Position numbers and translations under genes: made by a program. From the IMG/VR virus record IMGVR_UViG_3300012936_003490, positions 1 through 64,000 of that record: a stretch of DNA of 64,000 nucleotides, one strand, 5' to 3'. Below are positions 22,502 through 42,343 of this stretch, one piece after another. Position 1 is the stretch's first letter, and each line of letters starts with the position of its first letter. Source of the DNA: a virus. The notes below the pieces were generated by a model. The model saw only the letters and a list, made by a program, of their open reading frames with translations. It did not search any database and was not told the origin of the DNA.

Positions 22502-22515
22502 ATTGTACTTATTTC

Positions 22516-23745
22516 TTAAGATATGCTCTCTAATTGTTTATTGACTTGCATTAATTTTTCATCACGACTTCTTGTTTCCGATCCGCAATGCTTGCCACAT
22601 CTTACTATTCGAGGAAATTTTTTATCAAAAGTTGTGTTGTCAAAACTTTTGTTTAGATCATTCGTAAAAAACCTATGATCCATAATTGCAGATAAAGTAT
22701 GGAACTTTACATTATTCCAATCATCTGCATACTGATTCTCATAGTGAGACAAACGTTCATAATCACGTCTATCGCTTATCCAATCGTATTCTTTTGATTC
22801 ATGAGGTTGAATAGGATAATGATAAAATGTGCTAAAATAACAACACTGCCAAACTCTGCCTGTATAGTCTATACTTATTTGACGTTTGTTAAACCATTCG
22901 CACTCGATCTCAGTGCTGTTAATATTTTCTTTTACTGAACGTTTATACCAAGGTTTATTAGGATATTCGCTTCCTATTTGTTTATCTTCTGGTATTACTA
23001 GTTCTGCATACTGAGAAATTGTTTTGATATCTTCTTTGTTTATATTTTTCTTTTTTTGACTCAAATTATCTATTTTTATTTTATTTGTGTTATGGCGCAA
23101 TCTAGATCTTCTAATTTTAAATTTATGAAATCCTAGCTGTTTAGCCATTGCTTTTGCTTTTTCTATTTGATGTTCGTTATGCTCAAAGGCAATGAAACTC
23201 CATACACATCTGACGCCACTTGCTATACATGTTTTAGCATTTTCTATAACTTTATCAAAATTAACTCCTCGTCTATACAGTTGGTGTGTATCATCGTCTA
23301 CACCATCTAGAGCAAAAACAATTACACTAGTTTTATCATATTTTTGTTTAATAATTTTGCACAGAGACGTCCACCATTTTTCGTCATGTAATCCTCCGTT
23401 TGTTTCACACATAAAACGTAATTTTTCTGTAAGTTTATTTTTTAATCTATATTGAGAAAACTTGTTTACATTATCAGCAATTTTATCTACTATTGTATGA
23501 CAATCAGGATGAAGTATAAAATCTCCGTATGTTCCTGTAAAGTTTATGTAACGTGCATTTTGTGATACAGTTGTATCAAAGATATTGTCTATAAACATTT
23601 TATCTAACAAACCTGCTGATCCAACTTCTATAAAAGGATTAATTTCATCTGTTCCCTGCACAAATCTTTGGCAGTCTAAACATCTGCTGTTACAATTGCT
23701 TGTAATTTCTAGATGTATTCCTTGGTCGTGCATATCAAATTGCAT
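22516..23745 (-). CDS. radical SAM protein with C-terminal SPASM/twitch-like domain
   Basis: CNSRCLDC; C-terminal C...QCC...CGKHC. Probable start is ATG 23745 (track start 23763). Confidence 0.9.
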   Translation of the reverse strand: MQFDMHDQGIHLEITSNCNSRCLDCQRFVQGTDEINPFIEVGSAGLLDKMFIDNIFDTTVSQNARYINFTGTYGDFILHPDCHTIVDKIADNVNKFSQYRLKNKLTEKLRFMCETNGGLHDEKWWTSLCKIIKQKYDKTSVIVFALDGVDDDTHQLYRRGVNFDKVIENAKTCIASGVRCVWSFIAFEHNEHQIEKAKAMAKQLGFHKFKIRRSRLRHNTNKIKIDNLSQKKKNINKEDIKTISQYAELVIPEDKQIGSEYPNKPWYKRSVKENINSTEIECEWFNKRQISIDYTGRVWQCCYFSTFYHYPIQPHESKEYDWISDRRDYERLSHYENQYADDWNNVKFHTLSAIMDHRFFTNDLNKSFDNTTFDKKFPRIVRCGKHCGSETRSRDEKLMQVNKQLESIS

Positions 23746-24940
23746 ACTCAACACCAGTAACATGATTAGACATTAAAGATTTAAAAGTTTGTGCATCACT
23801 GCTTTTTGTTGCACACAGGCCGCATCTACAAATCATATTAGGACAAATTATAGGTTCTAATGTTCCTGATGCAAGTTGCTTTTCTACACTGTCTGTAAAT
23901 TTTTTGTAATCTGTAATAGATCCAACTGCTCCTCTTTGTTTTCCAATTTTAGCTTGACATGTTTGATGATGAAAAATTTGATCAGTTTGACTTTCAAGAT
24001 GTAAGAAAAACCAATTCACTCCACAATACCAATCTAAAAATCGTGTATCTGAAACATATCTTTGTTGTTCTGTTGTGCCGCATTTCAAACCGCAACTAAG
24101 TTGATGGTTACTACAACAATGTCTACCTTCTATAGTATATGTTTTAGTTTTATCTGCCTGTAATTTTTTAAATGTTTCTCCTACATCTTTTTTCATTTTA
24201 CGATGAAGTTTGACCTCTTTGTTAACATTTTCAACTTTTTTAGTTGTGGTTGTAGCAATTTTTGTTTTACTGCTTTTACTGTTCTTATTTTGCCAGTAGT
24301 TTTTTATCCAACTACTCTGCTCATAACTGTAGGGTAAACCGTTTATTACCCTCGGCATATACTTGACATCATGTTCTTCCATTACATCTATAAAATCTAA
24401 ACACTCTTTCCAATAATTATCATATGGATGCATCATTAAATTAACTTTAAAACTTTTTAATTCTTGCTTTAATAGAAGAGTATTTTCTCTCACTTTTTGT
24501 TTGATTTTTTCTTTGCTATCACAGTGGTAACTTAATGTTATACCTCTAAAATTTTTTGCAAGTAGCGGAATATGTTTTTGTGCAAAACTACCGTTAGTTG
24601 TAAGTATAGTGTACACATCATAATCAAAGTCTTGAAAACTTTCTTTGAGATAAGAACTAAAGTCAACAAAACAAGGATTTGCTGTTGGCTCTCCACCTGT
24701 AAGACTTAAACTTGCTGTCTTTTCTGTTCTATATGGCATGATAATTTTTAAGTAATCTTTAACTAAGTCCACACCCTTAACTAGTTCGTTAAAACTAGGA
24801 AAAGGACTTACAAGGTCGTGTCTATCATCTCCGCAGTAAGCACAATCAAAATTACACCGTTTTCCTGTATCCCAAGTGATAATAAACTGATTTGTTTTTA
24901 CAGGATCAATGCTGTTATATGTTCCGTTTTCTCTATCCAT
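23735..24940 (-). CDS. radical SAM protein (W..G..CNFxCxYC subfamily)
   Basis: CNFDCAYC, TGGEPT; Cys-rich C-terminus (CPNMICRCGLC). Confidence 0.9.
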   Translation of the reverse strand: MDRENGTYNSIDPVKTNQFIITWDTGKRCNFDCAYCGDDRHDLVSPFPSFNELVKGVDLVKDYLKIIMPYRTEKTASLSLTGGEPTANPCFVDFSSYLKESFQDFDYDVYTILTTNGSFAQKHIPLLAKNFRGITLSYHCDSKEKIKQKVRENTLLLKQELKSFKVNLMMHPYDNYWKECLDFIDVMEEHDVKYMPRVINGLPYSYEQSSWIKNYWQNKNSKSSKTKIATTTTKKVENVNKEVKLHRKMKKDVGETFKKLQADKTKTYTIEGRHCCSNHQLSCGLKCGTTEQQRYVSDTRFLDWYCGVNWFFLHLESQTDQIFHHQTCQAKIGKQRGAVGSITDYKKFTDSVEKQLASGTLEPIICPNMICRCGLCATKSSDAQTFKSLMSNHVTGVEYAI

Positions 24941-26177
24941 CTAAATATTTCCGATATCTCTTGTTTAATTTATTCAAGTCTGTATTACGTAGTTTGTCTT
25001 GAAGTTTTGTATAACTTTTAAAATATTCAAATTCACCTGTGCGTAACTTTCTGTTTTTATCAAAACTTAAAATATTTTCAATCTCTTTGAGTACAAAAGG
25101 ACTAGATGATAGAGTTTTTTTGACATACTTTCTATCTTTGTCTGTCAAAAACGCTGTAGACAGCCAGGATTGTTCTACCTGTGCATATAAAACTTTAATT
25201 CCTCCACATGATCTAAACCAGGCATCAAACTCTGCAATTTTTTTGACATTTAAAATATTATACATTTGCATTACAAAACTTGTTTGTATTTTAACATTTT
25301 CAAAACGTTCAGCTAAATGCAGAAACTTTTCAATGTTATTTTTTACAATATTCCAGTTGCCGTTAGATCTTACATATTCATAATCTTTTTCTGTACCATC
25401 TAAACTTATCATAATAATGCATTTTTTAAATTTAGATACAATTTTATCAAAATCTTTAGGATAAATCGTTCCATTGGTTGTAAAAACTAGTTCGCACTCT
25501 TGTACATTTACACTATTAGAAAATTTATCTATAGCCAACCAAGATTCATCATGTAATAAAGGTTCTCCTCCTAATAACTTCATACGTTTAACATTTTCAA
25601 AAGGAACTTGTTCTACAAAATTATTTGTGTCTTTGTTTTTTTTGTAAAGATGTTGATTAGCATCTTTGACTATTCTATCGCTTATTTTATCAGGATCGGC
25701 ATCAATATATTCATTTTGATGTTTAACCATTTCTTTTGCAATTTGAGAACTGCTTCCAGGTTTACACATTCTACATTGTAAGTTACATAGATTACTTGCT
25801 CTAATATCAAGACCTAAAGGTGCATTAAATTCATTTCCTGTTTCAACTGATAGTTTAAGGCCTTTTCCTTTTGTTAACCGTCTGGCCATATGATAATAAA
25901 TGCGTCTTGCATTATAGCCTAATTTTTTTTCAATGTTTAAACAACTCTTACAAAACTCTGGAACTACACCATCAAGCATTTGTTGCCGCACATTTTTCAT
26001 ATAATCACTTGTCCAATAATCTTTATAATCTTTAAAAGTAAGATCTATTGTTTCTTTTGTATTGCGAGTCTCGCAACAGGGACGTAGTAAGGATTTTTTT
26101 GCATCTCCTTTATAAAATAAATGCATAAAAGGAGCGTAGCACAGGGGCTCAGACTGTTGGTTTTGGTTTTCCATCAA
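24933..26177 (-). CDS. radical SAM protein with N-terminal twitch-like domain
   Basis: CYAPF...PCC...CKSC, CNLQCRMC and LGGEPL; AGGAG SD lies inside the upstream gene. Confidence 0.9.
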   Translation of the reverse strand: MMENQNQQSEPLCYAPFMHLFYKGDAKKSLLRPCCETRNTKETIDLTFKDYKDYWTSDYMKNVRQQMLDGVVPEFCKSCLNIEKKLGYNARRIYYHMARRLTKGKGLKLSVETGNEFNAPLGLDIRASNLCNLQCRMCKPGSSSQIAKEMVKHQNEYIDADPDKISDRIVKDANQHLYKKNKDTNNFVEQVPFENVKRMKLLGGEPLLHDESWLAIDKFSNSVNVQECELVFTTNGTIYPKDFDKIVSKFKKCIIMISLDGTEKDYEYVRSNGNWNIVKNNIEKFLHLAERFENVKIQTSFVMQMYNILNVKKIAEFDAWFRSCGGIKVLYAQVEQSWLSTAFLTDKDRKYVKKTLSSSPFVLKEIENILSFDKNRKLRTGEFEYFKSYTKLQDKLRNTDLNKLNKRYRKYLDG

Positions 26178-27543
26178 AGTGGGCTCCTGGTCTAGATCCT
26201 TCAGTTACATTTGTTGGATCATATCTGTCAAAATATCTTTGTAGCATTGGTTCAATAGTAAGCGTATCAGTTCCTCTGATTTTATTCAACGCTAATTCTG
26301 CCCTCACAAAATCATTTGTATATCTTACTTTGCGCTCATGTGTTTGTGTTTTATCAAGTTCACTGTGTAGCAAATCAAACCATTGTTGTTCGTCCTTGTT
26401 CATATCAAACTCAACAATACACTCTTGAACTTGCTGTCTAATATAATCCTTGTGGTCATCGTCTAACCAACTTACACTTAGGTACCAAGGATCAACTATA
26501 GGATTAAATGTTACACCATTATGCTTGTTTGAATACTTACGTGATCCTTTAAGGAACCATTCAACATTACGCTTTACTTGGAATGCACTTACAGGCTGGA
26601 ATACATGCATAATACCTGCCCACTTTAGGTTAGGCAATGTAAATATTTTGTCAAATACTTTTTGTTTTTTATCCCATTTAGTACCGTCACGTAAAAATTC
26701 GTCTGTGGCTCCTACGCCATCTACACTAATGTTAAAGCTCACTTCTTTAAACTGAGCAAGTAAGTCATAAATCCTACTTGGTAAACTTGTGCAGTTTGTT
26801 ATTTGATGCAGTCTTACATTGCGAGCTTCTCCGCTGTCTACAATCTTTTTCATAATATTGTAAACACGAGGATCAATAAGTGTTTCGCCTCCACTCATTT
26901 TCAAACGAAATACTTTACTAAAGTCTAAATTACTTACCACATCAAACTTAGGATCTGAATAATCTATTTGCTGTGCTTTACGCATTGCATTCTTACTTTG
27001 TGTAACCATATCCCAATGACTCCAACCCTGTATTTCTGGGTTAGCAAGCACTTCTTGCTCAATTTGGTTACTCCAAAGGCTATTACAACTGCGACATTTC
27101 AAGTTACACAGTTTACTAGGACGTAGATCAATATCCACAGGTTTTTCAAACTCAAGTGTACCCTTTTGAATATCCCAATGTATATCTGTAAAGCCTTCTT
27201 TAAGTTCTAGCTCGTAGCGTTTTATATAATCTAATCTGTCGCTTTTATGATAGATGCCTTCACTTTCCCAACGTCCGCACCACCATTCACAAGACTCTGG
27301 CATTTTACCATCAAGAAAACTTTGACGAATTTCTTGCATTGTCTCGCCTTTCCAAAATTCTTCATGCTGATCTTTAAGACTAGATTCAGTATCCCATCGT
27401 CCAATCACATGACTCATACAACAAAGTTTATATCCTCTGTTGTTTGCATTTATGTATGTGTGCATAAACGGTGCAGGACAGAATTTTTTGTTTGGAACGA
27501 TGCTTTCTAAACGTTCTGCTTCTTTTTTATCTATTTTAGCCAT
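26149..27543 (-). CDS. radical SAM protein with N-terminal twitch-like domain
   Basis: CPAPF...LCC...CEWWC, CNLKCRSC and SGGET. Confidence 0.9.
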   Translation of the reverse strand: MAKIDKKEAERLESIVPNKKFCPAPFMHTYINANNRGYKLCCMSHVIGRWDTESSLKDQHEEFWKGETMQEIRQSFLDGKMPESCEWWCGRWESEGIYHKSDRLDYIKRYELELKEGFTDIHWDIQKGTLEFEKPVDIDLRPSKLCNLKCRSCNSLWSNQIEQEVLANPEIQGWSHWDMVTQSKNAMRKAQQIDYSDPKFDVVSNLDFSKVFRLKMSGGETLIDPRVYNIMKKIVDSGEARNVRLHQITNCTSLPSRIYDLLAQFKEVSFNISVDGVGATDEFLRDGTKWDKKQKVFDKIFTLPNLKWAGIMHVFQPVSAFQVKRNVEWFLKGSRKYSNKHNGVTFNPIVDPWYLSVSWLDDDHKDYIRQQVQECIVEFDMNKDEQQWFDLLHSELDKTQTHERKVRYTNDFVRAELALNKIRGTDTLTIEPMLQRYFDRYDPTNVTEGSRPGAHFDGKPKPTV

Positions 27544-28778
27544 TCAGTTAATTCCACACATGATAAATCATCGAAAGATTGACTTCGTTGTTCATCAAGT
27601 GTTGTTGACATATATTTAAGCTGATCACGTTTTTTATATTTTACGTCTGGTTCAATCTTTTTTGCCATCTCAACATAACGTTCAAATTCTTTAACTTGCC
27701 TACAGTCAGTATTTTGCCATTTTGTTAGAGTACATTCTAGTAAACTACTAGGTAAAAACTTTGCGGCAAGTTCACTGTCTTTAGGACGTAGATTTAAATT
27801 AAAGTCAATACGGGGTATGTAATTTTTCTTTAACAACCAAGGATACTTTTCTGTATAGGATTTTAATGTAGTATACAGTTCTGGATTATTATGCCAATTA
27901 TAGGCTGTTACTACTGTACTTGTTCTAACTCTAAAATGAGGATTTTCATACATTCTATGTTCATCTGCAAAAGCAAGAAACTCCATAAATCTTTCTTGCC
28001 ACTTACTCCACGTAAACGGATACCGAATATAGTCGTAGGTTTCATTGCATCCGTCAACACTTACATTTAGGTCGACACCCTTAAAATGTTTTAACCTTTC
28101 TAACACCGCACGAACAAACTTGGTTCCATTTGTAGTTATTAACAATCTAATATTTTTAGCAAAGTCATTGTCAATTGCATAATCAAGAACATCAAGAAAT
28201 TCTTTACTTATAAAAGGCTCACCACCTGTGACTTTTAGTACTTCAATTGTGTCTAACAATTCAATCACATATTCTTTACGTTTTTGGCTTACAGTTGCAG
28301 TGTCTTTCTGCTTGTAGTTTGTAAAAGATTTCCAATGCTCAGGCATAGGCTTTTCATTATCTCTGTACCAATCTATAGCTGAAACAAGTTGATTACTACT
28401 ACTTGGGTCACACATTCTACAAGCAAGATTACAAGTGTTATCAAAACGCAAATCTAAATATTTAATTTTTTCATCTGCGTCAGGATTAACAAACTCTTTA
28501 AATTTATCTACAGTGTAGGTGTGTCTAAAACTTAGTCCGTCGTTGCGCTCTCTTGCATAACAAACTTCGCAAGCAGGATGTTCTTTTCCTTGTTGCATGT
28601 ATGCCCGTATCTCGTCCATGCTTGTGCTTTCAAATGCTTGTTTTATACTGTTAGCATCATCTTTAAAATTAAAGTAACTTTCGCTGTTACAACAAGGACG
28701 ATAACCTCCGCCTACACTTCCGTTTACGTGTATCCAAGGAAGTATGCAAAATGTTTTACTATTTGTTGGTTGCTTCAT
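27531..28778 (-). CDS. radical SAM protein with N-terminal twitch-like domain
   Basis: CILPW...PCC...CEVC, CNLACRMC and TGGEPF. Confidence 0.9.
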   Translation of the reverse strand: MKQPTNSKTFCILPWIHVNGSVGGGYRPCCNSESYFNFKDDANSIKQAFESTSMDEIRAYMQQGKEHPACEVCYARERNDGLSFRHTYTVDKFKEFVNPDADEKIKYLDLRFDNTCNLACRMCDPSSSNQLVSAIDWYRDNEKPMPEHWKSFTNYKQKDTATVSQKRKEYVIELLDTIEVLKVTGGEPFISKEFLDVLDYAIDNDFAKNIRLLITTNGTKFVRAVLERLKHFKGVDLNVSVDGCNETYDYIRYPFTWSKWQERFMEFLAFADEHRMYENPHFRVRTSTVVTAYNWHNNPELYTTLKSYTEKYPWLLKKNYIPRIDFNLNLRPKDSELAAKFLPSSLLECTLTKWQNTDCRQVKEFERYVEMAKKIEPDVKYKKRDQLKYMSTTLDEQRSQSFDDLSCVELTEWLK

Positions 28779-29815
28779 CTTATCTTCTCTAATGTTTTTT
28801 TGTATTTTTTTAACATTTTAAGAGCAGATAGGTCTTCATGCTCTAAGTGAAGTTGCAAATATCTTGTTACAAATTGATTTTTTATTTTCTTAATAAACTT
28901 TTCTTTCTTGTTTTTTGGCAATATTTGTATATCTAAATAATAAGGCTGTTGTAAAATATCAAAACGTGTGGGAAAATACTTTCTACTAAATTCTAAATAA
29001 TTATTAATATTATGTATATTTAAATTATGAACTACAAAATGAAAAGATATTTCAATATTAGTGTGTTTTGCTTTAAAATCTTTCCACCATTTTATATTTT
29101 CGATTACTTTTTTCCAATTAGTTCCATACCTTACAAATTCTGCGGTTTTGCCTTCTCCATCTAAACTTATATCTACATTTAATTTTTTGCATTTGACAAA
29201 TATATTTTGCCATTCTTTATTAGGCTTTACACTACAATTTGTAACAATTTGTAAATTTATATTTTCTAATAATAAACTTTGTAAAAATTTGATATTCCTT
29301 GGCTCCATAAAAGGTTCTCCTCCAAGAATTTTTACCATCTCTACTTTCTTTAATTCTTGGGGAACAAAATCAAAGTCTGTATATACAACTTGCTTTTTTG
29401 GTTTGGCTTTATTTGCTCCTATTGAATTTACAGCATCAATATCTTTCCACCAAGTGGTGCTGTATGCCGCATCACATGTAACACAGGCAAAATTGCAACT
29501 ATTACTTAATCCAACTTCTATATATCTTATTTCAGGATTATTTTTGTTTATGTTACTAAAGTCTTGATTAGCTGTTTGTCTATAACTTTTCCTACCTAAC
29601 TTTTCATCTCTATAACATTTTTCACAACCTTTGATATATTCTCCTTTTAACATTTTATTCCTTAGCTCTGTCATCTTAGAACCATAAAAATAATCACGAG
29701 GAGATATCTTATCTATATATTCTTTATCAGAAAACCTACAGCAAGGTTTGTTCCTGCCACCTACATTTGTACAACTGTGGATAAAAGGTAACGGACAATA
29801 AGTTTTGTTTACCAT
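28775..29815 (-). CDS. radical SAM protein with N-terminal twitch-like domain
   Basis: CPLPF...PCC...CEKC, CNFACVTC and LGGEPF. Confidence 0.9.
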   Translation of the reverse strand: MVNKTYCPLPFIHSCTNVGGRNKPCCRFSDKEYIDKISPRDYFYGSKMTELRNKMLKGEYIKGCEKCYRDEKLGRKSYRQTANQDFSNINKNNPEIRYIEVGLSNSCNFACVTCDAAYSTTWWKDIDAVNSIGANKAKPKKQVVYTDFDFVPQELKKVEMVKILGGEPFMEPRNIKFLQSLLLENINLQIVTNCSVKPNKEWQNIFVKCKKLNVDISLDGEGKTAEFVRYGTNWKKVIENIKWWKDFKAKHTNIEISFHFVVHNLNIHNINNYLEFSRKYFPTRFDILQQPYYLDIQILPKNKKEKFIKKIKNQFVTRYLQLHLEHEDLSALKMLKKYKKTLEKIR

Positions 29816-31023
29816 ACCATTTCCTCAACTGACTTTCCAAAGACTTTAGAAAAATTTTGATTTTTAATAGTGTCAATTCTATGTGTATAATATATAAATG
29901 CATCTACATCTTTTTTAGATTCTCTTGAATTTTGTAAAGCATGTATAATCATATCTGCCATTTTAATTGCACCTTGACGTTGTAAACTTTTCTCCTGCGA
30001 AAATAGTTTTTTCCTAATTTTTCCAACATGTTTTATAAGATTGTTTTTTTGATTGTATAAAACATCTATGCCTAAATATGTAGGATACTGAACAAAACTA
30101 TGATGCAGTCTGTCTACCGGTAATAATAACATATCGTTAATAATATTTTCTAAATCTAAAATTTGATAAGGTGTTATTGTGTTAGTAGCTTCTAAAATTG
30201 TTTTTTTGTTTTTTTTCTTAAACGTTTGAATATTTGTGATTATATTCTCATATATCCCGTTCCTAAAATAATTATAAAGATTACTACCTCCATCTACACT
30301 AATTTTTATTTGTGATCTACCAAAGTTATTCATATATTCGCTTAGTTTTTCATAATCAACAGGAGTGTTAAAATTGCTAACAATATTCACCCAAATTTTA
30401 TTTCTATTTGGGTGTGCTTGTATGCCTTCTAAAAATTGCCAAAATTGTTTTTGATATAAAGGTTCGCCACCTCCAACATCTATTCTTTTAAGGTTAGGAC
30501 AGTTTTGTATCAAATCAGTTACAAGATCATTTACTTGTTCTTTAGTCCATGATTGATTAGGCCACTGCCTTACCAAATTCTTTATGTCATGTGTGTAATC
30601 ATCTGGCACACGTTCTACTCGTTTTAAAATACTGTTCCATTTACTTGAATAATCAGGAGCACAGTGTCTACAACTAAGGTTACATGCATTACTAAATCTT
30701 ATCTCTATGTATTCAATATTACGTTGTTTAATTTTATTTTGACGATTCAACTTCGTAACCATTTTTTGATTTTGATTACTTTTTTGTCTATAACTTTCTT
30801 GTCCCCTTGATTCTTGATCTTGACAACTTTTACAATGCTCTGGCCAGACACCTTTTGCAAGTGATTGTCTTATTGCTCTAAAATTATCATTATTGATAAA
30901 TTTGCTAGGAGCTACACCTTCAGATATGTTTGCTAGAGAGCCTGTGCCTCTAGGACACATTGTAATTCTATCGTCAGGTTTAAAGTTTACGGCATGAAGT
31001 GCAAAATAACAAGGCAATTTCAT
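29809..31023 (-). CDS. radical SAM protein with N-terminal twitch-like domain (CP in place of CC)
   Basis: CNLSCRHC, GGGEPL; N-terminal C...MCP...CKSC. Confidence 0.9.
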   Translation of the reverse strand: MKLPCYFALHAVNFKPDDRITMCPRGTGSLANISEGVAPSKFINNDNFRAIRQSLAKGVWPEHCKSCQDQESRGQESYRQKSNQNQKMVTKLNRQNKIKQRNIEYIEIRFSNACNLSCRHCAPDYSSKWNSILKRVERVPDDYTHDIKNLVRQWPNQSWTKEQVNDLVTDLIQNCPNLKRIDVGGGEPLYQKQFWQFLEGIQAHPNRNKIWVNIVSNFNTPVDYEKLSEYMNNFGRSQIKISVDGGSNLYNYFRNGIYENIITNIQTFKKKNKKTILEATNTITPYQILDLENIINDMLLLPVDRLHHSFVQYPTYLGIDVLYNQKNNLIKHVGKIRKKLFSQEKSLQRQGAIKMADMIIHALQNSRESKKDVDAFIYYTHRIDTIKNQNFSKVFGKSVEEMVW

Positions 31024-31775
31024 TTTATATTACCTATGTGATTATATAAAAATCTTGCTAGTTCAGTATGTCCTTCTTCTAACGGGTGGTTATCAGGGCC
31101 AATTGAGTAATTCTTATCTTGGCACCATTCTAAGATTCCTTGTTCTCCTAGTGGCCATATATTTTTATTCAGATCAATACATCCGTATGTGTCTATTATT
31201 TCTTTTGTAATATGATTTGGATACCTTTTGTTCCTGCATTTTTCTATCGTGCGATTAATATCATCAAATGTATGATGGTTCATTGTTAACATAACGTAAG
31301 GAATATTGTAACTTTTCAATAACATTTGTGTATCTAATATATTATTCATAGTATAAAATGCACTGCAATGTTGAGAGAAATAAATTTGATGTTTGGCAAG
31401 ATGTTTGGTACTATCATTAGGAAGTTCACTCATCCTTATATCTACCCATTTCGCCATAGATTTTTCCTTCATAAACCTGGATGGCATAAGCGGAATATAG
31501 CCGGTATTATATTCGTTTGCTGGCCAATCTTTATTATATAATTCCCATCTACTAGTCGAACTCCATTGAATAACAGCTATCTTGACTTTGTCTTTATTTT
31601 TTATTATACTTCTAAGTGTAGTTCTTGCTATTCTTGCATTACTTGAACCTCCCATAGCATCGTTAAGATGACTAGGATATCCTAGAAGTTGTGTAAGGAT
31701 ATTACTATATCTACTCTGTCTTTTTTGTTGTAATTCATGTCCATCAGTATAACTGCATCCGTTTGCGTATAACAT
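31020..31775 (-). CDS. SGNH/GDSL-like protein
   Basis: LYANGCSYT, GGSSNARI, QWS...R and DNHP. Probable start is ATG 31775 in a TAATG overlap. Confidence 0.7.
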   Translation of the reverse strand: MLYANGCSYTDGHELQQKRQSRYSNILTQLLGYPSHLNDAMGGSSNARIARTTLRSIIKNKDKVKIAVIQWSSTSRWELYNKDWPANEYNTGYIPLMPSRFMKEKSMAKWVDIRMSELPNDSTKHLAKHQIYFSQHCSAFYTMNNILDTQMLLKSYNIPYVMLTMNHHTFDDINRTIEKCRNKRYPNHITKEIIDTYGCIDLNKNIWPLGEQGILEWCQDKNYSIGPDNHPLEEGHTELARFLYNHIGNIK

Positions 31776-32833
31776 TATAATTCCTGCATTCCTATGTGCT
31801 TGCCTATAGGTATACTTTTCTTTGAGCATTGTTTTATACATGTAGACAAGCACCCATTCTCAAAAGAATATTTTTCACTCCAACTATTGACTAAGGCATC
31901 TGAATAATATTCACCTGCTATTATATCATCTAAGTTGTATTTGTGAAGACTGTTAAAACCTACTCCGTATTTTAAAAAAACTTTATTTTGCATCTCAGTA
32001 TAATAGGTGTATCCTCTTGTCAAAGGATTTGATACAAAGCAACACGGCCAAATTGCACCGTTGTAATCTAAAAACATTTTCTTTTCTTGTCGGAAGTGAC
32101 AATCTATATCAATTTCGTTACCGTAGCTTGCAACCAAATTATCAACACTAGATATATCTAATCTTTTACTAGCTCTATTTGGTACAGTTTTAATTCTGTT
32201 ACGAAAAGCCATTGCATTTACTATACCATTTTCACTGTATGTAGATCTATCTCTTCTAAGTACAAAACGTTTCATGCCTATTTTTTTTGCAATTTTTTTA
32301 CAACGCTTAACATCTTTTTTGTTCCAAGGAAATTCTAACATTTGCCATAATGCAGATCCTCCTGCTTTTATAAAAATTTCTGCATGACTTATTATATCAT
32401 CCCAATTTTCTACACCACGATACAAAAAATGATTTTCTTGCATTCCGTCAATGCTAAATCTAACCATATGTTGCGGATGCCTACATAATTTCTCGGCAAG
32501 CTCAACGTAAAATTTATTACTACGCAAACTTCCGTTCGTGTGTATGCTTACAGTGCATTGAGGATTGTATGTATAGATAGTGTCTAGTATATCTAAGAAA
32601 TATTTATGAGCCAAGGGTTCATCTACTGTACCGCAAAATTCAATTTCTTTAATTTGTCTTCCTACATCTGTATCAAATATGTTTTTGAAAACGTCTGTAG
32701 GCAAAAATTTAGTTCCTTCTTGCTTGAATAAAAATTTTGCATTAGGTGCAACCCTTACACAACCTTGACAATCTGCATTGCAAAAATTAGATATCTCTAC
32801 CTGTAATACATCTATCTGTGTCAAATACTTCAT
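31775..32833 (-). CDS. radical SAM protein with C-terminal SPASM/twitch-like domain
   Basis: CNADCQGC, EFCGTVDEP and PCC...CIKQC. Confidence 0.9.
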   Translation of the reverse strand: MKYLTQIDVLQVEISNFCNADCQGCVRVAPNAKFLFKQEGTKFLPTDVFKNIFDTDVGRQIKEIEFCGTVDEPLAHKYFLDILDTIYTYNPQCTVSIHTNGSLRSNKFYVELAEKLCRHPQHMVRFSIDGMQENHFLYRGVENWDDIISHAEIFIKAGGSALWQMLEFPWNKKDVKRCKKIAKKIGMKRFVLRRDRSTYSENGIVNAMAFRNRIKTVPNRASKRLDISSVDNLVASYGNEIDIDCHFRQEKKMFLDYNGAIWPCCFVSNPLTRGYTYYTEMQNKVFLKYGVGFNSLHKYNLDDIIAGEYYSDALVNSWSEKYSFENGCLSTCIKQCSKKSIPIGKHIGMQEL

Positions 32834-33912
32834 GTAAATTGTTCTGCATATGGATCAAATTCGCTTCCGCATTTTTGAGCGCAAACTCCTAATTTTCCTT
32901 GGGCAATACTTTCTTTTTTCCAACTATCTGATATGCTGTTAATTAATTTTCCATTAACAACTGTTTTAATATCATTATTGATAATATTTATACCCTGTTT
33001 TCCTCCTGCAAAATCTATATGATCCCAAATTTGTTCAACACGAGGATCATTATGCCACCATTTATACATTCGTCCAGCTGTCCAACAACATGGCATCAAA
33101 AGTCCTTCGGCAGTTACAAAAATACTACCTTGTTTTGCTACCTTACAAGTTACACTACATTTGTCTAGATAATTGGCCATACTACCGTAAGATTTTTCAA
33201 TCTCTTTTTGTTTAAGCAATGCAAGATTTTGATTTTGTTCTTGTGTTGGTTTTTGTAGTTTTTGTGTATCTGACCCTTTGCGATTTACAGCTTGATGTTC
33301 ATTTTTTGGTTTTATATCAGTTGTAATAAATCTGCCTGATTTCTTCTTTACAAACTTTTCACATCCCCATACTTTTGCAAGTGCTTCTGCTTGTTCAACT
33401 TGATGTTCGTTGTGCTGAAATATTAAATAATCCCATCGAGCTCTACCTCCGGCATCAATAAATGCTCGCATGTTGCGTTCTACATTGTCCCATACAACAT
33501 TCTGCCTGTACAAATGATTAGTGTCCCTAAGGCCGTCCACGCTGAAAATAACAGCACCCATCCTGCCAAAAACTTTGGCCAGTTCACGCCACCATGCTTC
33601 ATCTTTTGCTCCTGCATTTGTATTCATACTAAGCCACATGTTAGGGTTATGTGTTCTAAAATAACGAAAAACTTCAAGTGTATCTCGCGCTATTATAGGG
33701 TCTCCTAGGTTACCACACATATACATTGTTTTTAATTGTTTTATAAAAGAAGGTTTAAATATCTTAACGCAATCTTCGTGAGACAATTCTGCATTTGTAA
33801 TATGAGGGTTGTCTGCACCTCCATTCATATTGCGATCACACATAGGACATGCGGCTTGACAACGTTGGGTAATTTCTAAATGTACTTCTTTAATATCTTC
33901 GTATCTATACAT
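32830..33912 (-). CDS. radical SAM protein with C-terminal SPASM/twitch-like domain
   Basis: CQAACPMC, MCGNLGDP and PCC...CAQKC. Confidence 0.9.
   Translation of the reverse strand: MYRYEDIKEVHLEITQRCQAACPMCDRNMNGGADNPHITNAELSHEDCVKIFKPSFIKQLKTMYMCGNLGDPIIARDTLEVFRYFRTHNPNMWLSMNTNAGAKDEAWWRELAKVFGRMGAVIFSVDGLRDTNHLYRQNVVWDNVERNMRAFIDAGGRARWDYLIFQHNEHQVEQAEALAKVWGCEKFVKKKSGRFITTDIKPKNEHQAVNRKGSDTQKLQKPTQEQNQNLALLKQKEIEKSYGSMANYLDKCSVTCKVAKQGSIFVTAEGLLMPCCWTAGRMYKWWHNDPRVEQIWDHIDFAGGKQGINIINNDIKTVVNGKLINSISDSWKKESIAQGKLGVCAQKCGSEFDPYAEQFT
33480..33602 (-). CDS. overprinted +1-frame 40-aa single-pass membrane peptide nested in a radical SAM gene
   Basis: AGGAG-CAAAAG-ATG; MKHGGVNWPKFLAGWVLLFSAWTALGTLIICTGRMLYGTM*; host codons are locally G/C-ending. 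Confidence 0.6.
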   Translation of the reverse strand: MKHGGVNWPKFLAGWVLLFSAWTALGTLIICTGRMLYGTM

Positions 33913-34612: not shown

Positions 34613-34830
34613 GGTAAAATCAACCTCACATCTTTTCCTGGGCCAGTTTTACTAGGCAAGTCACCGTATTTTCCCACATACCAGTCTATAACAGCAACAT
34701 ACCAGTTTTGACTGTTGTGATGTGCTTGTTTGTTAAATTGATATATGTTGTTATTAGTAGCTTGCATAGTGCTTAGAGCTCTAGCACTTTCTTGCTGTAA
34801 CTGTCTTAGTGATAATTTATTTGTGTCCAA
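34609..34830 (-). CDS. small hypothetical protein (73 aa)
   Basis: TTG start inside the 3' end of the glycosyltransferase gene; overlaps both neighbours in operon-like packing. Confidence 0.65.
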   Translation of the reverse strand: MDTNKLSLRQLQQESARALSTMQATNNNIYQFNKQAHHNSQNWYVAVIDWYVGKYGDLPSKTGPGKDVRLILP

Positions 34831-37438
34831 TTCTCATATACCTCGTATATTTTTCTAAAGGCAACTCACCTGCAAATTTAACTTCGCTTAATGGTGCCAT
34901 TTGTTCAAAATGCGAACTATCTTTGACACAATTTACATGCTCTGGCAAATCAAAATAATCATTACTTTGCAAAATTACTAATTTACCTTGTGGAATTTTT
35001 GCATACCACTCCTCAAAGTTTTCTATATGTTCGCAACTTGTGTTTATAATAGTATCCGGAACATCCTTTAATTCTTCTATTTGGCCGTTATTTTTTACTG
35101 TTTCATACACATGACGTTTATAATCAATATCTAATATGTTCTTTGTCTGTGCTTTAAATTTCCAATTGTCAAGCACTAGATCTTTGTTGAATATTTCTGC
35201 AATTTTCCACACATTTGGGTCAACATCAAAACTTCTAATTTTATCAAACTGAATATTGCGTTCTTGGAATAGTTGCACAATAGTAGAATACCAACCTGCA
35301 CAGATATATACAGTGCCTAAATGCCAGCCAGTTATGTTATCTGCTAGCCATAATTTACTTTTTATCTGTCCTCTACTAAAACTATCTTTGTCGAAATCAA
35401 TGTTTTCTTGTGCAATAGTTTTCAAAGCCTTAACATAAGGGCTTCCTGTGTATTCCTCTAACACTTTATACAATGAATGGATATCGTTTTCCAATATCTT
35501 AAATACATTTTCTAAATTAGGACACAGTCTTCTTAGGCTATACAAGTTTTTTTCTAAAACAGCTTTGCGTAGATCATCATCGCAGTTAACAAGTCTAAAA
35601 ATGCTGTGTAGATTTTTTTCAACCACTGCTTTGCGTAGTTCTTCATTAGGATCTAACTTAAATACACTACTAGGATCTCTGTCATTATAAAATCTGCGAA
35701 CATGTTCTATCTTTCCTTGATATAATAATTCGAATCTATCAAGTAAATCTACAATTTCGTTATCAAGTGTAACTTGTGTTTCTTCTATAGGCACTAGTTC
35801 AGATGGCTTTAATGTTTTATTTTCATTAAATTGTTCTTTCAACCAATCAAAGTCGTTAATTAGCCGAAGATCAGACCCCCTAGAAAGGCCAAACTCCATA
35901 CCAGCCCTAGCACCTCTAATGGCATGTTCACCAAACTTTCTATCGTGTCCCACGGTTGTCCAAGTTTCGAGTCTTTCATTTGTTTCTCCTGTTTTTTGTC
36001 TATCAATTACTTTACTACTTAATTTTGCACATTCTCTAAACGCACTTCTCCAAGTGCTGAATGGATCAGTATTAAATGCAGTAACATTACTTACAACCTT
36101 TATCGGTTTGAAATGCCTGCTAATACTTGTTGTCATATCTGGCTTTGTAGTGTCCATATTTAAGGTTAGTGTCCGAGGGAACAATTTTACTCCGCCATAT
36201 CCGTATTCTAAATCATTTACAGGATTTTTACTGCGCCAAACTTTTACATAATCCTTTTCATCATCTGGAGATATGTAATCAAAATTAAAATCATCTACAA
36301 TTTTAGCGTCACCGTCAACTATCCATATCATTTCTGTTGTGCATAACTTAGCGGCTTCTATATGAGCTTGATGTATGCCCTTTACCCCATGAACACGTTT
36401 TGCTCTTGGAAATCTACTTTTTAAATCATTGTAATTTTGTTCAGCTTCTAATTCGTCATAGGTGATCATTACAATATCATACAATTCTTTTTCTTGAAAA
36501 TTTTCTAACAAGAAATCTTGTCCGGTACGCACAGGCGGCGTATACATACTTTTGAAGAATTTACTTTGTTCTTGTTCGTAAGGATCTATAGGAATATCAA
36601 GTTCTAGTTGTTCTTTTAGTGTAATTCCCAATGCTTGAATTGCTTCTAATAACATTTCTTTAGGATCTGTATCTGCAAGTAGATTCATTTTATTCTTCCA
36701 GAGCTCATTCAAATATTCAAAATCTCTTACATTTACAAAATCCCAATCTGTGCAATTTGTTAGATAACAACCTTCTCTTGCTCCATAAATGGCCCATAAT
36801 CCGTTTTCAGTGTCAGCACCTACAGTCTGCCAGATTTTCAATCTTTGTAAATTTTTCTTGTGTACAGTTTTTTCGAATTTAGAAATACCGGAAATTTTTT
36901 CACCTTCATATAAACTCATCTTTACACCTTCGCGAAAACCTGCTCTCCAGGCTTGCCAAGGTGTTGCATTGTTATACACGTAACTATAGACTTTGTTAAT
37001 TTGCAAATATTGTAAATCCCAGCAAAAATCTACCTGTGCTTGCGGATTATTAGGATCGGCATTTTCATGTGTTTTCATATCTAACACAACTTGTTTAGGC
37101 CAGCATTTGATGCCTCCATTACCGTACGTCAACCCATTTACAATGTTGTATCCACTCCAGCTTATCACACACTTATCAAGATCAACATCATCTTTGAATA
37201 CTAGTTCTTCTTCTACAAACTTAGCGTCTATTATGTTATCTCCATCTATTGTAATAAAACGTTCAGTTTCGCTAAGTTCAGCACATGCTTTATGTGCGGC
37301 ATCTGACCCTTCTACACCATGAATGCGTTTTGCCCAAGGTACTTTTGTAAGAAGGTCAGCGTAATTTTTTTCAGCATTAGGTTCGTCATATGACAAATAT
37401 ATAATATCGTAATCCCGTACTTTAATAATTTGACCCAT
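34817..37438 (-). CDS. fusion protein: two tandem GT-A (GT2-like) glycosyltransferase domains, helical repeat linker and C-terminal SAM-methyltransferase-like domain
   Basis: Duplicated YDI..I.YDE..AE.NY..L....P.AKR.HGV.G...AH...A, DxD motifs (IDGDN, VDGDA) and YG.GG.K..P; C-terminal ICAGWY / SFDVDP / INTSCEH; AGGAG-5 nt-ATG. Confidence 0.8.
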   Translation of the reverse strand: MGQIIKVRDYDIIYLSYDEPNAEKNYADLLTKVPWAKRIHGVEGSDAAHKACAELSETERFITIDGDNIIDAKFVEEELVFKDDVDLDKCVISWSGYNIVNGLTYGNGGIKCWPKQVVLDMKTHENADPNNPQAQVDFCWDLQYLQINKVYSYVYNNATPWQAWRAGFREGVKMSLYEGEKISGISKFEKTVHKKNLQRLKIWQTVGADTENGLWAIYGAREGCYLTNCTDWDFVNVRDFEYLNELWKNKMNLLADTDPKEMLLEAIQALGITLKEQLELDIPIDPYEQEQSKFFKSMYTPPVRTGQDFLLENFQEKELYDIVMITYDELEAEQNYNDLKSRFPRAKRVHGVKGIHQAHIEAAKLCTTEMIWIVDGDAKIVDDFNFDYISPDDEKDYVKVWRSKNPVNDLEYGYGGVKLFPRTLTLNMDTTKPDMTTSISRHFKPIKVVSNVTAFNTDPFSTWRSAFRECAKLSSKVIDRQKTGETNERLETWTTVGHDRKFGEHAIRGARAGMEFGLSRGSDLRLINDFDWLKEQFNENKTLKPSELVPIEETQVTLDNEIVDLLDRFELLYQGKIEHVRRFYNDRDPSSVFKLDPNEELRKAVVEKNLHSIFRLVNCDDDLRKAVLEKNLYSLRRLCPNLENVFKILENDIHSLYKVLEEYTGSPYVKALKTIAQENIDFDKDSFSRGQIKSKLWLADNITGWHLGTVYICAGWYSTIVQLFQERNIQFDKIRSFDVDPNVWKIAEIFNKDLVLDNWKFKAQTKNILDIDYKRHVYETVKNNGQIEELKDVPDTIINTSCEHIENFEEWYAKIPQGKLVILQSNDYFDLPEHVNCVKDSSHFEQMAPLSEVKFAGELPLEKYTRYMRIGHK
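35860..35979 (-). CDS. overprinted +1-frame 39-aa membrane peptide nested in the glycosyltransferase gene
   Basis: AGGAG-AAACAA-ATG; MKDSKLGQPWDTIESLVNMPLEVLGLVWSLAFLGGLIFG*; host frame uses AGG/GGG/CGG codons here. Confidence 0.6.
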   Translation of the reverse strand: MKDSKLGQPWDTIESLVNMPLEVLGLVWSLAFLGGLIFG

Positions 37439-40772: not shown

Positions 40773-40780
40773 TATTTATA
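40773..40780 (-). promoter_or_regulatory. T4 late promoter consensus TATAAATA
   Basis: Exact T4 gp55-type consensus about 25 nt upstream of a structural gene, overlapping the upstream stop codon. Confidence 0.7.
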
Positions 40781-42308
40781 CCTTCAAAACACACTCTATC
40801 AATTTTTCGTCTTCTGAATCGCTTGCTTCTAAAGCAATGCCTACTAGTCCGCTTGTTGCAACAGTAGAACACACACCATCTGCCCATGCATAAACTGGAT
40901 CTCCTTTTTTAACCATTCCTTTAACCCTTACAGGAACACGGCCTTTTAATCCAATTGCCTGGCCTTCTGATCCACTGTTCATTAGATAAGCAGGTTCAGC
41001 TGATATCACACCTATACACATGCAACTAGAAGCACATGCTGTAGTTTCAGCATCTCCTCCTACACACATTGCTGTGCCTACTGGATATTCTTTATCTGTT
41101 GTATACTTCTCAGCTAAGTCAGCATATCTTGCACTTGTAGCTAATCCTTGGAAAAGGACCGCATTTAGATTTCCTGCCGCATCTCTTACTGCAACTGTGT
41201 TTCCGCCTGCGGCGCTGTCTGATCCTACATCTGGATTTCTTGCTGTGCCGCTTACTATTAATTGTTCTGCCTTTTGGGAAGTACCATAAAAATTATTTGC
41301 ATATATGCTATTAAATCTTATAAAATCATCTGCACCTGGTGATGTTTCATCTTTACCAATGTTAATTGATTTATAAACTGTTGGCCCTGTGCTTTGAATA
41401 CCTGGTAAAATTTCTCCTGGACGAATATCTATTACATTGACACTTGCTCCACCAGTTTCTTTTACTCTAAATTTAATTTCGTCACCTTGCGAATTTTGAA
41501 TCACACCTTCGTTGTCATTTTCAATAAACAATTTAAGATCAAGTCCTGCACCAATAGCAATACCTGCATCTGTCTGAAAGTTTGTTATTTCTGTGAATAC
41601 TGTGGGTGCACCTGGATTAGCAGTGACATAATTACTTGCATCAACTCCATTAAGTTTCAATGCATTAGATGCAGTACCGTGGAATTGATGATCTGTGCTA
41701 GTGACACCGGCAGTTGCACTCTGTGTATTTTTAAGTGTAACACCTTGTCTTACAACGTCAAATCCTGAAATGGCGTTTTCAGCATCTGCGCTGTCAATTG
41801 TAAACTCTACAGGGCTTATTATAAAAATTACTTCATCATTTACTGTAGCGGCAATAACGCTTCTTGATATAGAACCAGTGTCTCTAACAGTTTTACTTTG
41901 CATTTGTGTGATGCCTGAACCAGCATCTTGGGGTCCTACTAATACAAAGTCTGTTCCGTTGTATGCATATAATTGTTGGTTAGTTGTATCCCACCAAAAA
42001 TCACCAGTTGATAAACCTGCAGGAGCAGTAGCACTTATTTCTGCACCGCCTGTTGTACGCCATTTACCACCGTCATAAAACTTTAATTTGCTGTTTGCAC
42101 TATCAAACCAGATTTGACCTCTTATAGCCCTCGGTGGTTGATTAGCACCTGCAAAATTTTCTAGTAAAAATACAAAGTTTTCGTTTTGTATTTCGCCATA
42201 CCCTGCATAATTTTTACCAACAAGTTTTATGTCGGTAGTTTGGTCAATAGTACCGTCTTGAACTACTGTAAGCTGGGTAGTATCATATTTGTTAATTGTA
42301 TACGCCAT
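40776..42308 (-). CDS. tail fibre / baseplate-associated protein
   Basis: N-terminal DGTID...LVGKNY.GYG....NF..LLENFA....P..GQIW.D domain; C-terminal YADLAEKY...GRVPVRV domain typical of phage fibres. TAAATA at 42330-42335 lies upstream. Confidence 0.75.
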   Translation of the reverse strand: MAYTINKYDTTQLTVVQDGTIDQTTDIKLVGKNYAGYGEIQNENFVFLLENFAGANQPPRAIRGQIWFDSANSKLKFYDGGKWRTTGGAEISATAPAGLSTGDFWWDTTNQQLYAYNGTDFVLVGPQDAGSGITQMQSKTVRDTGSISRSVIAATVNDEVIFIISPVEFTIDSADAENAISGFDVVRQGVTLKNTQSATAGVTSTDHQFHGTASNALKLNGVDASNYVTANPGAPTVFTEITNFQTDAGIAIGAGLDLKLFIENDNEGVIQNSQGDEIKFRVKETGGASVNVIDIRPGEILPGIQSTGPTVYKSINIGKDETSPGADDFIRFNSIYANNFYGTSQKAEQLIVSGTARNPDVGSDSAAGGNTVAVRDAAGNLNAVLFQGLATSARYADLAEKYTTDKEYPVGTAMCVGGDAETTACASSCMCIGVISAEPAYLMNSGSEGQAIGLKGRVPVRVKGMVKKGDPVYAWADGVCSTVATSGLVGIALEASDSEDEKLIECVLKV

Positions 42309-42343
42309 TTATAAACCCCTTGTTGCAAGTATTTATCATATCC

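What the first reader, a model, noticed from the sequence alone, without database searches (positions are those of the whole stretch)
33480..33602. 40-aa single-pass peptide hidden in radical SAM gene 32830..33912
AGGAG-6 nt-ATG gives MKHGGVNWPKFLAGWVLLFSAWTALGTLIICTGRMLYGTM, with a charged N-terminus and a ~20-residue Trp-containing hydrophobic core. By hand count 16 of 37 synonymous host codons in the overlap end in G/C, including three AGG Arg codons. It is below the ORF-track size cutoff, so standard annotation would miss it.
Basis: seen in the sequence. Interest (0 to 1): 0.75.

Follow-up and report, generated by a model that had tools for sequence, protein, structure and literature searches.

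The report
Hidden membrane-peptide gene inside phage enzyme gene
A 40-codon gene for a small membrane-type peptide lies out of frame inside a radical SAM enzyme gene of a marine tailed phage, and related phages have kept its ribosome-binding site, start codon, open frame and greasy core far more often than chance allows, so it is probably a real gene that annotation misses.

Summary
On the minus strand, AGGAG (33609-33613), a 6-nt spacer and ATG (33602) open a 40-codon ORF ending at TAG 33480. It lies in the +1 frame of radical SAM gene 32830-33912.

Length alone means nothing: the contig holds 20 same-strand +1 ORFs of 40 codons or more. Comparison with relatives is what counts.

- **Association:** among 162 non-redundant orthologous fragments, 51 carry SD+ATG and 46 of these stay open for at least 35 codons. 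Only 14 of the other 111 do.
- **Stop depletion:** a codon-resampling null fits the rest of the gene (483 +1 stops against 513 expected in carriers). Inside the ORF it fails (0 against 51).
- **Neutral simulation:** tree-based turnover never reached the observed count.
- **Hydrophobic core:** the 18-residue core has 0.3 polar residues against 2.5 expected.
- **Alternatives:** no RNA structure, compositional patch or frameshift site explains this.

Against it, pairwise synonymous divergence is not reduced, carriers are scattered on the gene tree, and nothing shows translation.

Verdict: probably (about 0.7) a real overprinted gene for a single-pass membrane peptide, present in roughly a third of orthologues. 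Its role is unknown. The scan has not reported this on other DNA.

The parts
33480..33602 (-). Embedded small ORF: 40 codons plus TAG, in the +1 frame of the radical SAM gene. Product MKHGG...GTM.
   Evidence: Searches give the sequence. It is conserved with SD+ATG in 46 of 51 non-redundant carriers. Length is 40 codons in 32 of the 46, 35 in 6, 39 in 1, 44 in 1, and at least 47 (to the end of the fragment examined) in 6.
33609..33613 (-). Shine-Dalgarno core AGGAG, 6 nt upstream of the ATG. It is made of host codons Ala99-Gly100-Ala101 (GCA GGA GCA).
   Evidence: In carriers Gly100 is GGA in 41 and GGG in 5 of 46, and Ala99 is GCA in 44 of 46. In other sequences GGT, GGC and GCT dominate. The phage's own genes use such motifs: 28 of 61 genes against an 8.6% background.
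33600..33602 (-). Start codon ATG, formed by host GAT(Asp103)+G of Glu104.
   Evidence: The three fragments with ATG but no SD are all closed. Three members of the open group use GTG here together with an SD.
33615..33617 (-). Upstream in-frame ATG, which would give a 45-aa form. It is probably not the start.
   Evidence: It is present in only 31 of 46 carriers, and it lies upstream of the SD.
33507..33560 (-). Hydrophobic core, peptide residues 15-32 (WVLLFSAWTALGTLIICT), overlapping host codons 117-134 (MGAVIFSVDGLRDTNHLY).
   Evidence: The core has 0.30 polar or charged residues per peptide against 2.46 expected given an open frame. Gln, Asp, Glu, Lys and stops are avoided at host sites 119, 126, 127, 128 and 130 relative to non-carriers. 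AlphaFold2 models one helix over residues 7-39, pLDDT 83.
33624..33626 (-). TGA that closes the +1 frame upstream. It is forced by host Met95-Asn96 (ATG AAY).
   Evidence: the stop is present in 100% of orthologues at this column.
32830..33912 (-). Host gene: radical SAM enzyme, 360 aa, one of an array of radical SAM paralogues.
   Evidence: Pfam PF04055, PHROG 21308. 351 relatives were found in viral contigs.

Best explanation
This is a real overlapping (overprinted) gene. On the operon mRNA, ribosomes start at the internal AGGAG-N6-ATG (33613-33600, minus strand). They read the +1 frame of the radical SAM gene for 40 codons. The product is a peptide with a short N-terminus (MK-x-GG), one hydrophobic helix of about 18-25 residues and a short C-terminal tail. 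The peptide most likely inserts into the host cell's inner membrane as a single-pass helix.

The gene exists in roughly a third of the orthologous radical SAM genes of related marine phages and is absent from the rest. It most likely arose de novo. The host motif Asn-Ala-Gly-Ala-Lys-Asp-Glu, written in the preferred A/T-ending codons, supplies both SD and ATG. The +1 reading of the conserved host strand GAVIFSVDGL is intrinsically T-rich at second codon positions, and so hydrophobic.

Shown here: anatomy, co-conservation of SD, ATG and open frame, depletion of stops, and depletion of polar residues. Inferred: translation, membrane insertion and any function. The likelier roles are a small membrane effector or a membrane partner of the modification enzymes. 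These tools cannot decide between them.
For: 1. **Association.** In 162 non-redundant 183-nt fragments, SD+ATG goes with at least 35 open codons in 46 of 51, against 14 of 111 for the rest. The 50 fragments from metagenome contigs are an independent replicate: 9 of 12 against 3 of 38.

2. **Calibrated null.** With host amino acids fixed and codons resampled, +1 stops in carriers number 483 against 512.6 expected outside the region and 0 against 51.0 inside. In non-carriers the figures are 565 against 590 outside and 60 against 66 inside.

3. **Stop-prone sites.** At these sites carriers use several different safe codons and almost never an unsafe one: L110 0 against 27.3 expected, V120 0 against 23.3, V124 1 against 20.6, L127 0 against 19.5.

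4. **Neutral simulation.** Codon turnover on a tree built from the other synonymous sites, with the root forced open, gives a mean of 4.3 of 39 open and a maximum of 20 in 2000 runs. The observed count is 37. P stays at or below 0.005 even with branch lengths cut 10- to 20-fold.

5. **Core residues.** The core has 0.30 polar residues against 2.46 expected given openness. A at host third positions is tolerated where it gives Tyr (site 133, 23 of 37). It is avoided where it gives Gln, Asp, Glu, Lys or a stop.

6. **SD use.** The phage uses SD-type starts, and only 7 internal AGGAG-N5-8-ATG occur in 72 kb of coding sequence.

7. **No RNA structure.** Consensus energy is -6.7 kcal/mol with one compensatory pair. 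The antisense frame is closed by TTA/CTA at host Leu133 in most carriers.

8. **Helix model.** AlphaFold2 gives one helix over residues 7-39, pLDDT 83.
Against: - Pairwise synonymous divergence inside the ORF is not reduced: 0.44 against 0.43 in the rest of the gene, observed/expected 0.93. The peptide sequence itself is therefore only loosely constrained. Most invariant residues (M1, K2, G4, G5, G38) are dictated by the host protein.
- Carriers are not one clade on the tree of the rest of the gene: 10 changes, at least 6 of them forced. Recombination of the segment or repeated gain and loss must be assumed.
- Hydrophobicity is partly a by-product of the host sequence.
- There is no expression evidence. 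The RNA-library contigs that match the gene do not cover the ORF.
- Only one gene call for such a peptide exists in 5.8 billion proteins, and no free-standing homologue was found.
- The simulation model (UPGMA tree, resampling from pooled usage) is crude.
Confidence: 0.7

Rival explanations
1. Chance ORF. An ancestral allele of this gene segment happened to be open in the +1 frame, spread by recombination, and has not yet decayed. SD, ATG and hydrophobicity are by-products of the host motif and of T-rich third positions.
For: ORFs of this length are common in the contig (20 in the +1 frame). SD and ATG are made of preferred host codons (P(ATG) about 0.73 given Asp/Asn-Glu). Resampled open versions are already hydrophobic. 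Carriers are scattered on the gene tree, as recombining alleles would be. There is no drop in pairwise synonymous divergence.
Against: Synonymous sites between carriers are near saturation (median t about 2). Neutral simulations give about 4 of 39 open against 37 observed. The stop-prone sites themselves have turned over among safe codons only. Polar residues are depleted in the core beyond what openness requires. An independent sample repeats the pattern.
Confidence: 0.12
2. The +1 frame is translated, but only the act of translation matters, for example for local mRNA unfolding, ribosome traffic or stability. The peptide itself has no function.
For: The peptide sequence is weakly constrained. 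SD, ATG and length are the best-kept features.
Against: This does not explain the specific avoidance of Gln, Asp, Glu and Lys in an 18-residue core while Tyr is tolerated. No conserved RNA structure is present for translation to open.
Confidence: 0.08
3. Programmed +1 ribosomal frameshift. The SD-like AGGAG lies 2 nt before Lys102 AAA-G. It would push ribosomes translating the radical SAM gene into the +1 frame, giving a fusion of the first ~102 residues of the radical SAM protein to a hydrophobic tail.
For: The SD sits at a prfB-like distance from an AAA-G codon on which tRNA-Lys could re-pair (the prfB comparison is from general knowledge).
Against: Lys102 is replaced by Arg AGA or CGA in 11 of 46 carriers, which removes the slippery codon. 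The next host codon (GAT/AAT) is common, not a stop or a rare codon. The ATG (or GTG) is kept, which a frameshift does not need. ATG without SD goes with closed frames.
Confidence: 0.04
4. A nucleotide-level constraint on the host mRNA or DNA removes A-ending codons here and opens the frame as a side effect. Candidates are an RNA structure, a GC-rich patch from recombination, or codon optimisation of the catalytic core.
For: GC3 is 0.43 inside against 0.20 outside in the window, and 0.30 against 0.22 in carriers. Antisense frame a0 also has fewer stops than expected (49 against 90).
Against: No conserved structure was found. A-ending codons are used freely in carriers at sites where they are harmless to the +1 peptide: Leu133 TTA/CTA in 23 of 37, and GTA at Val139 in 5 of 17 and at Val143 in 16 of 18 of the first 18 carriers. 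Carriers have ordinary codon usage outside the region. Frames s2 and a1 show more stops than expected here. Non-carriers share the same conserved host residues without the effect.
Confidence: 0.05

Closest known systems
Lambda Rz1 and other embedded o-spanin genes (PMC6139136)
   Same: A small gene lies wholly inside another phage gene, on the same strand in the +1 frame, with its own start. Gene callers routinely miss such genes. The product is targeted to a membrane.
   Different: The host gene is an enzyme (radical SAM), not an i-spanin, and it lies in a modification operon, not a lysis cassette. No lipoprotein signal or lipobox Cys is conserved: Cys31 is seen only in the window sequence and a few relatives, and others have Tyr, Phe or Ser. 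The product is a plain transmembrane helix.
Single-gene lysis proteins embedded out of frame, such as phiX174 E inside D and LysM of phage M (bioRxiv 10.1101/2023.10.16.562596; the gene layout is from general knowledge)
   Same: A short single-helix membrane peptide is overprinted on an essential gene and has little sequence conservation beyond the helix.
   Different: Those occur in tiny ssDNA or ssRNA phages that lack holin and endolysin. This is a large tailed dsDNA phage with tail fibre and structural genes, related at a distance to jumbo phages. No lysis activity is known or tested.
De novo membrane proteins from thymine-rich sequence (PMC7005711) and viral overprinting in general (PMC8227390)
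   Same: A new ORF whose transmembrane character comes for free from T-rich codon second positions, later refined by selection. Its taxonomic distribution is narrow.
   Different: Here the T-rich template is the third-position track of a highly conserved enzyme segment in a phage, not yeast intergenic DNA. The origin is inferred, not dated.
Small hydrophobic type I toxins and phage small membrane proteins (Hok, TisB and similar; general knowledge)
   Same: Size (about 40 aa), a single hydrophobic helix and basic residues at the ends.
   Different: No antisense RNA partner was sought or seen. It is embedded in a coding gene rather than free-standing. Toxicity is untested.

Membership tests
Embedded (overprinted) same-strand overlapping gene | ORF in an alternative frame wholly inside a longer functional gene | tested here: met
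   +1 frame, offset 310 of 1083 nt in a Pfam-supported radical SAM gene.
Embedded (overprinted) same-strand overlapping gene | Own translation start signals, kept in relatives | tested here: met
   AGGAG-N6-ATG. In 46 carriers Gly100 is GGA or GGG in 46 of 46 and Ala99 is GCA in 44 of 46, against mixed codons elsewhere. The phage's genes use SD motifs.
Embedded (overprinted) same-strand overlapping gene | Frame kept open in relatives more than the host's amino acids and codon usage predict | tested here: met
   0 stops against 51.0 expected in carriers. 37 of 39 open against a simulated mean of 4.3. Replicated.
Embedded (overprinted) same-strand overlapping gene | Reduced synonymous-site variability of the host gene in the overlap | tested here: not met
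   Observed/expected pairwise synonymous difference is 0.93 in carriers and is not the gene minimum. Sites are near saturation and several codons are acceptable per site, so the measure has little power here.
Embedded (overprinted) same-strand overlapping gene | Protein product detected | not testable with these tools
   RNA-library contigs matching the gene do not cover the ORF. No proteomic data are at hand.
o-spanin (Rz1-like) | Lipoprotein signal peptide with a conserved lipobox cysteine | tested here: not met
   No conserved Cys. Peptide position 31 is Tyr, Phe, Ser or Cys across carriers.
o-spanin (Rz1-like) | Embedded in or next to an i-spanin gene in a lysis cassette | tested here: not met
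   The host gene is a radical SAM enzyme within an array of radical SAM paralogues and glycosyltransferase-like genes.
Single-gene lysis protein (phiX174 E type) | Small membrane peptide overprinted on another gene | tested here: met
Single-gene lysis protein (phiX174 E type) | Causes lysis by blocking a cell-wall precursor step, in a phage without holin and endolysin | not testable with these tools
   This needs expression in a host. The phage is a large tailed phage, which makes the role less likely.
RiPP-type precursor peptide of the radical SAM enzymes | Conserved core motif with modifiable residues (Cys, His, Ser or aromatic pattern) recognised by the enzyme | tested here: not met
   The invariant residues M1, K2, G4, G5 and G38 are dictated by host codons. 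The core is variable and hydrophobic, with no conserved Cys or His.
Programmed +1 frameshift site (prfB type) | Slippery P-site codon followed by a stop or slow A-site codon, with an SD a few nt upstream | tested here: not met
   The A-site codon is GAT or AAT. AAA/AAG is replaced by AGA or CGA in 11 of 46 carriers.
Holin | Membrane protein encoded next to an endolysin, with a charged C-terminal domain | not tested
   No endolysin was looked for. The peptide (40 aa) is shorter than described holins (general knowledge).

The most novel reading that the evidence does not exclude
A gene family born de novo by overprinting on the most conserved strand of a radical SAM enzyme, present in some lineages of marine large phages and absent in their sisters. 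A second embedded AGGAG-N6-ATG ORF (35860-35979, in the neighbouring glycosyltransferase fusion gene) is likewise kept open in its own clade. On this reading these phages carry a hidden set of small membrane peptides written inside their enzyme genes, and the carrier and non-carrier lineages give a natural series for studying how an overlapping gene is born and refined.
Probability: 0.45. Interest if true: 0.72.

Novelty: new member of a known kind. Interest (0 to 1): 0.62.

Why it matters
Out-of-frame embedded genes are well known in tiny phages and in spanin cassettes, but annotation of large dsDNA phages discards them.

- **Selection is visible here.** An overprinted ORF inside an enzyme gene shows selection on its start signals, its openness and its hydrophobic core across dozens of diverged sequences, while sister lineages lack it.
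- **Both states of a young overlapping gene can be compared.** The raw material can be identified: a host motif that spells SD+ATG, and a T-rich third-position track that spells a transmembrane helix.
- **Clean genetics is possible.** Host-synonymous changes (GAT to GAC at Asp103; GTT to GTA at Val120) would knock out the peptide without touching the enzyme.
- **Gene catalogues may undercount.** Small membrane proteins in marine phages may be missed in this way.

Tried and rejected
- **Length and hydrophobicity as evidence.** Rejected: 20 comparable +1 ORFs occur in the contig, and resampled open versions are already hydrophobic.
- **Synonymous-variability profile.** No clear dip, 0.93. It is uninformative at this divergence.
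- **Compositional GC3 patch.** Real, but confined to carriers. It is site-specific, following what A would encode in the +1 frame.
- **Conserved RNA structure.** None.
- **Antisense ORFs 33514-33708 and 33521-33664 (+).** Not maintained. Frame a0 is closed by TTA/CTA at host Leu133 in most carriers, and a1 and a2 are never open.
- **+1 frameshift.** The slippery codon is not conserved.
- **RiPP precursor idea.** No conserved modifiable motif.
- **Pfam on the 45-aa ORF product.** No family found.
- **Free-standing homologues.** A profile search of 5.8 billion proteins gave a single 44-aa JGI 'hypothetical protein' (P0001).
- **ESM Atlas.** Closed.
- **Cultured-phage database.** Only a 24% identical radical SAM gene in Pelagibacter phage Mosig.
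- **Sequencing runs.** Two marsh RNA libraries hold near-identical pieces of the host gene at 33054-33280 only, and DNA carry-over is not excluded. Nothing covers the small ORF.
- **Paralogues in the window.** They have no SD and carry +1 stops at the equivalent place.
- **Literature searches.** They found no description of this ORF.

Full report
**What is there.** The window is part of a 76,956-nt IMG/VR viral contig with about 33% G+C, estimated about 21% complete. It carries tail fibre and virion structural genes at 40776-46374. A gene with distant relatives in jumbo phages such as PA5oct is also present. A long minus-strand operon holds many radical SAM paralogues.

Gene 32830-33912 (-) encodes a 360-aa radical SAM protein (PF04055). 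The peptide sequence, the three AGG codons and the raised GC3 (0.43 inside, 0.20 outside) are all as stated.

**Why the sequence alone proves nothing.**
- The contig has 20 same-strand +1 ATG-ORFs of 40 codons or more inside genes.
- SD and ATG are spelled by the host residues Ala-Gly-Ala-Lys-Asp-Glu in the genome's preferred codons.
- The host's third codon position is the second position of the +1 codon. A T-rich third-position track therefore gives hydrophobic residues. Codon-resampled open versions already look like transmembrane segments.

**Orthologues.** I collected 80 loci from viral contigs with the protein. A conserved DNA pattern gave 120 more matching stretches from viral contigs and 118 from metagenome contigs. 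After removing near-duplicates there are 162 fragments of 183 nt in register.
- SD plus ATG is present in 51 of them, and 46 of these are open for at least 35 codons.
- Of the other 111, 14 are open.
- Three of those 14 have GTG at the start position behind an SD.
- The three fragments with ATG but no SD are all closed.
- The 50 metagenome-contig fragments, none within 95% identity of an earlier one, repeat the pattern (9 of 12 against 3 of 38). The three closed ones have a Gly-Gly host motif that forces an SD-like string.

**Is this more than shared ancestry?** Four results say so.

1. A null that fixes each sequence's host amino acids and resamples codons is well calibrated elsewhere. In carriers it predicts 512.6 +1 stops outside the region and 483 are seen. 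Inside host codons 103-137 it predicts 51.0 and none is seen. Non-carriers have 60 against 66.1 inside. Carriers' codon usage outside the region is ordinary (TTA 0.40, GTA 0.49).

2. At the stop-prone sites carriers use three or four different safe codons and almost never the commoner unsafe ones. At Leu110 they use CTT, TTG, CTG and CTC, with 0 unsafe against 27.3 expected. Val120 has 0 against 23.3, Val124 1 against 20.6, and Leu127 0 against 19.5.

3. Synonymous differences between carriers at the other sites of the region are near saturation (mean 0.44, the same as the rest of the gene). A neutral turnover simulation on a tree built from those sites, with the root forced open, leaves on average 4.3 of 39 open (maximum 20 in 2000 runs) against 37 observed. 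P remains at or below 0.005 when branch lengths are cut 10- to 20-fold (the first data set is).

4. No other 40-codon window of the gene, in any of five alternative frames, comes close (19-24 open against 1-2 expected). The next best is 14 against 3.6.

**Selection on the peptide.** The 18 residues overlapping host codons 117-134 carry 0.30 polar or charged residues per carrier. The expectation is 2.46 among resampled sequences that are also open.

The pattern is site-specific. A at the host third position is avoided where it would give Gln (sites 119, 130), Asp (126), Glu or Lys (128) or a stop. It is used at the expected frequency where it gives Tyr (site 133, 23 of 37). This argues for selection on the +1 product and not on base composition.

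AlphaFold2 on the family alignment gives a single helix over residues 7-39 (pLDDT 83). Variants seen in a seawater metagenome inside the ORF (G14E, T23M, A24V, C31Y, F11S) add no stop and no polar residue to the core.

**Alternatives examined.**
- RNAalifold finds no conserved structure.
- The antisense ORFs visible in the window are not maintained.
- A prfB-like +1 frameshift at AAA-G behind the SD is unlikely. The slippery Lys codon is Arg in 11 of 46 carriers, and the following codon is not slow.
- The peptide has no conserved Cys or His motif that would make it a radical SAM substrate, and no lipobox.
- Paralogues in the same window lack the SD and have stops.

**What speaks against.**
- The classical signature of dual coding, suppressed synonymous variability, is absent (0.93). 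I attribute this to saturation and to a loose requirement (open, hydrophobic), but it means the peptide's exact sequence matters little.
- Carriers are scattered on the tree of the rest of the gene (10 changes). The segment must recombine, or the ORF has been gained and lost repeatedly.
- There is no evidence of translation.
- The only gene call for such a peptide in a 5.8-billion-protein collection is one 44-aa hypothetical protein.

**Reading.** The most likely reading (about 0.7) is a real overprinted gene. Internal SD-directed initiation would give a 40-aa single-pass membrane peptide, born on a host motif that happens to spell SD+ATG, and present in roughly a third of the orthologues sampled. 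Its role is not known. It resembles embedded o-spanins and single-gene lysis peptides in architecture only, and it fails the spanin membership tests.

**In passing.** A second AGGAG-N6-ATG ORF flagged by the same scan (35860-35979) is also open in all 12 distinct close orthologues, although each has only a 1.5-15% chance of being open.

Noticed in passing
window 35860-35979 (-), inside gene 34817-37438: A second embedded +1 ORF with AGGAG-N6-ATG (39 aa, polar N-half, hydrophobic C-terminal helix). ATG and the full open frame are kept in all 12 distinct close orthologues. Each has only a 1.5-15% chance of being open by codon resampling, and their median synonymous difference is 0.39. All more distant orthologues are closed. 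Most of these 12 phages lack the first embedded ORF.
   Followed up: partly
window 20161-33912 (-): An uninterrupted array of radical SAM genes (at least ten with PF04055, several with SPASM or Fer4_12), next to glycosyltransferase-like genes and downstream of the tail fibre genes. Earlier notes of this scan count 13 paralogues.
   Followed up: partly
window 33459-33643: In a seawater metagenome the summed depth of contigs at 85% identity or more is 145-190 here, against 13-60 over most of the gene. This stretch is therefore the part of the gene most conserved at nucleotide level among co-occurring relatives.
   Followed up: no
window 32830-33912: Four small 2023 runs labelled with one organism name (coded 'organism A') hold 36-47% of the gene's sampled words. 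A culture or enrichment carrying a close relative may exist. Two marsh metatranscriptome libraries hold near-identical 156- and 175-nt pieces at 33054-33280.
   Followed up: partly
radical SAM orthologue alignment, columns 172-188 (about window 33330-33420): A second +1-frame stretch is open in 14 of 47 orthologues against 3.6 expected. It is not open in the window itself and was not examined for start signals.
   Followed up: no
L051, L055, L177, L198 (loci of viral contigs): In a few carriers the usual TAG, made by host Val143 GTA plus Glu, is read through because Val143 is GTG or the host residues at 143-144 differ. The peptide is then 68-80 aa long.
   Followed up: no
window 47019-61964 (-): A single ORF of 4981 codons lies next to the tail fibre genes.
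   Followed up: no
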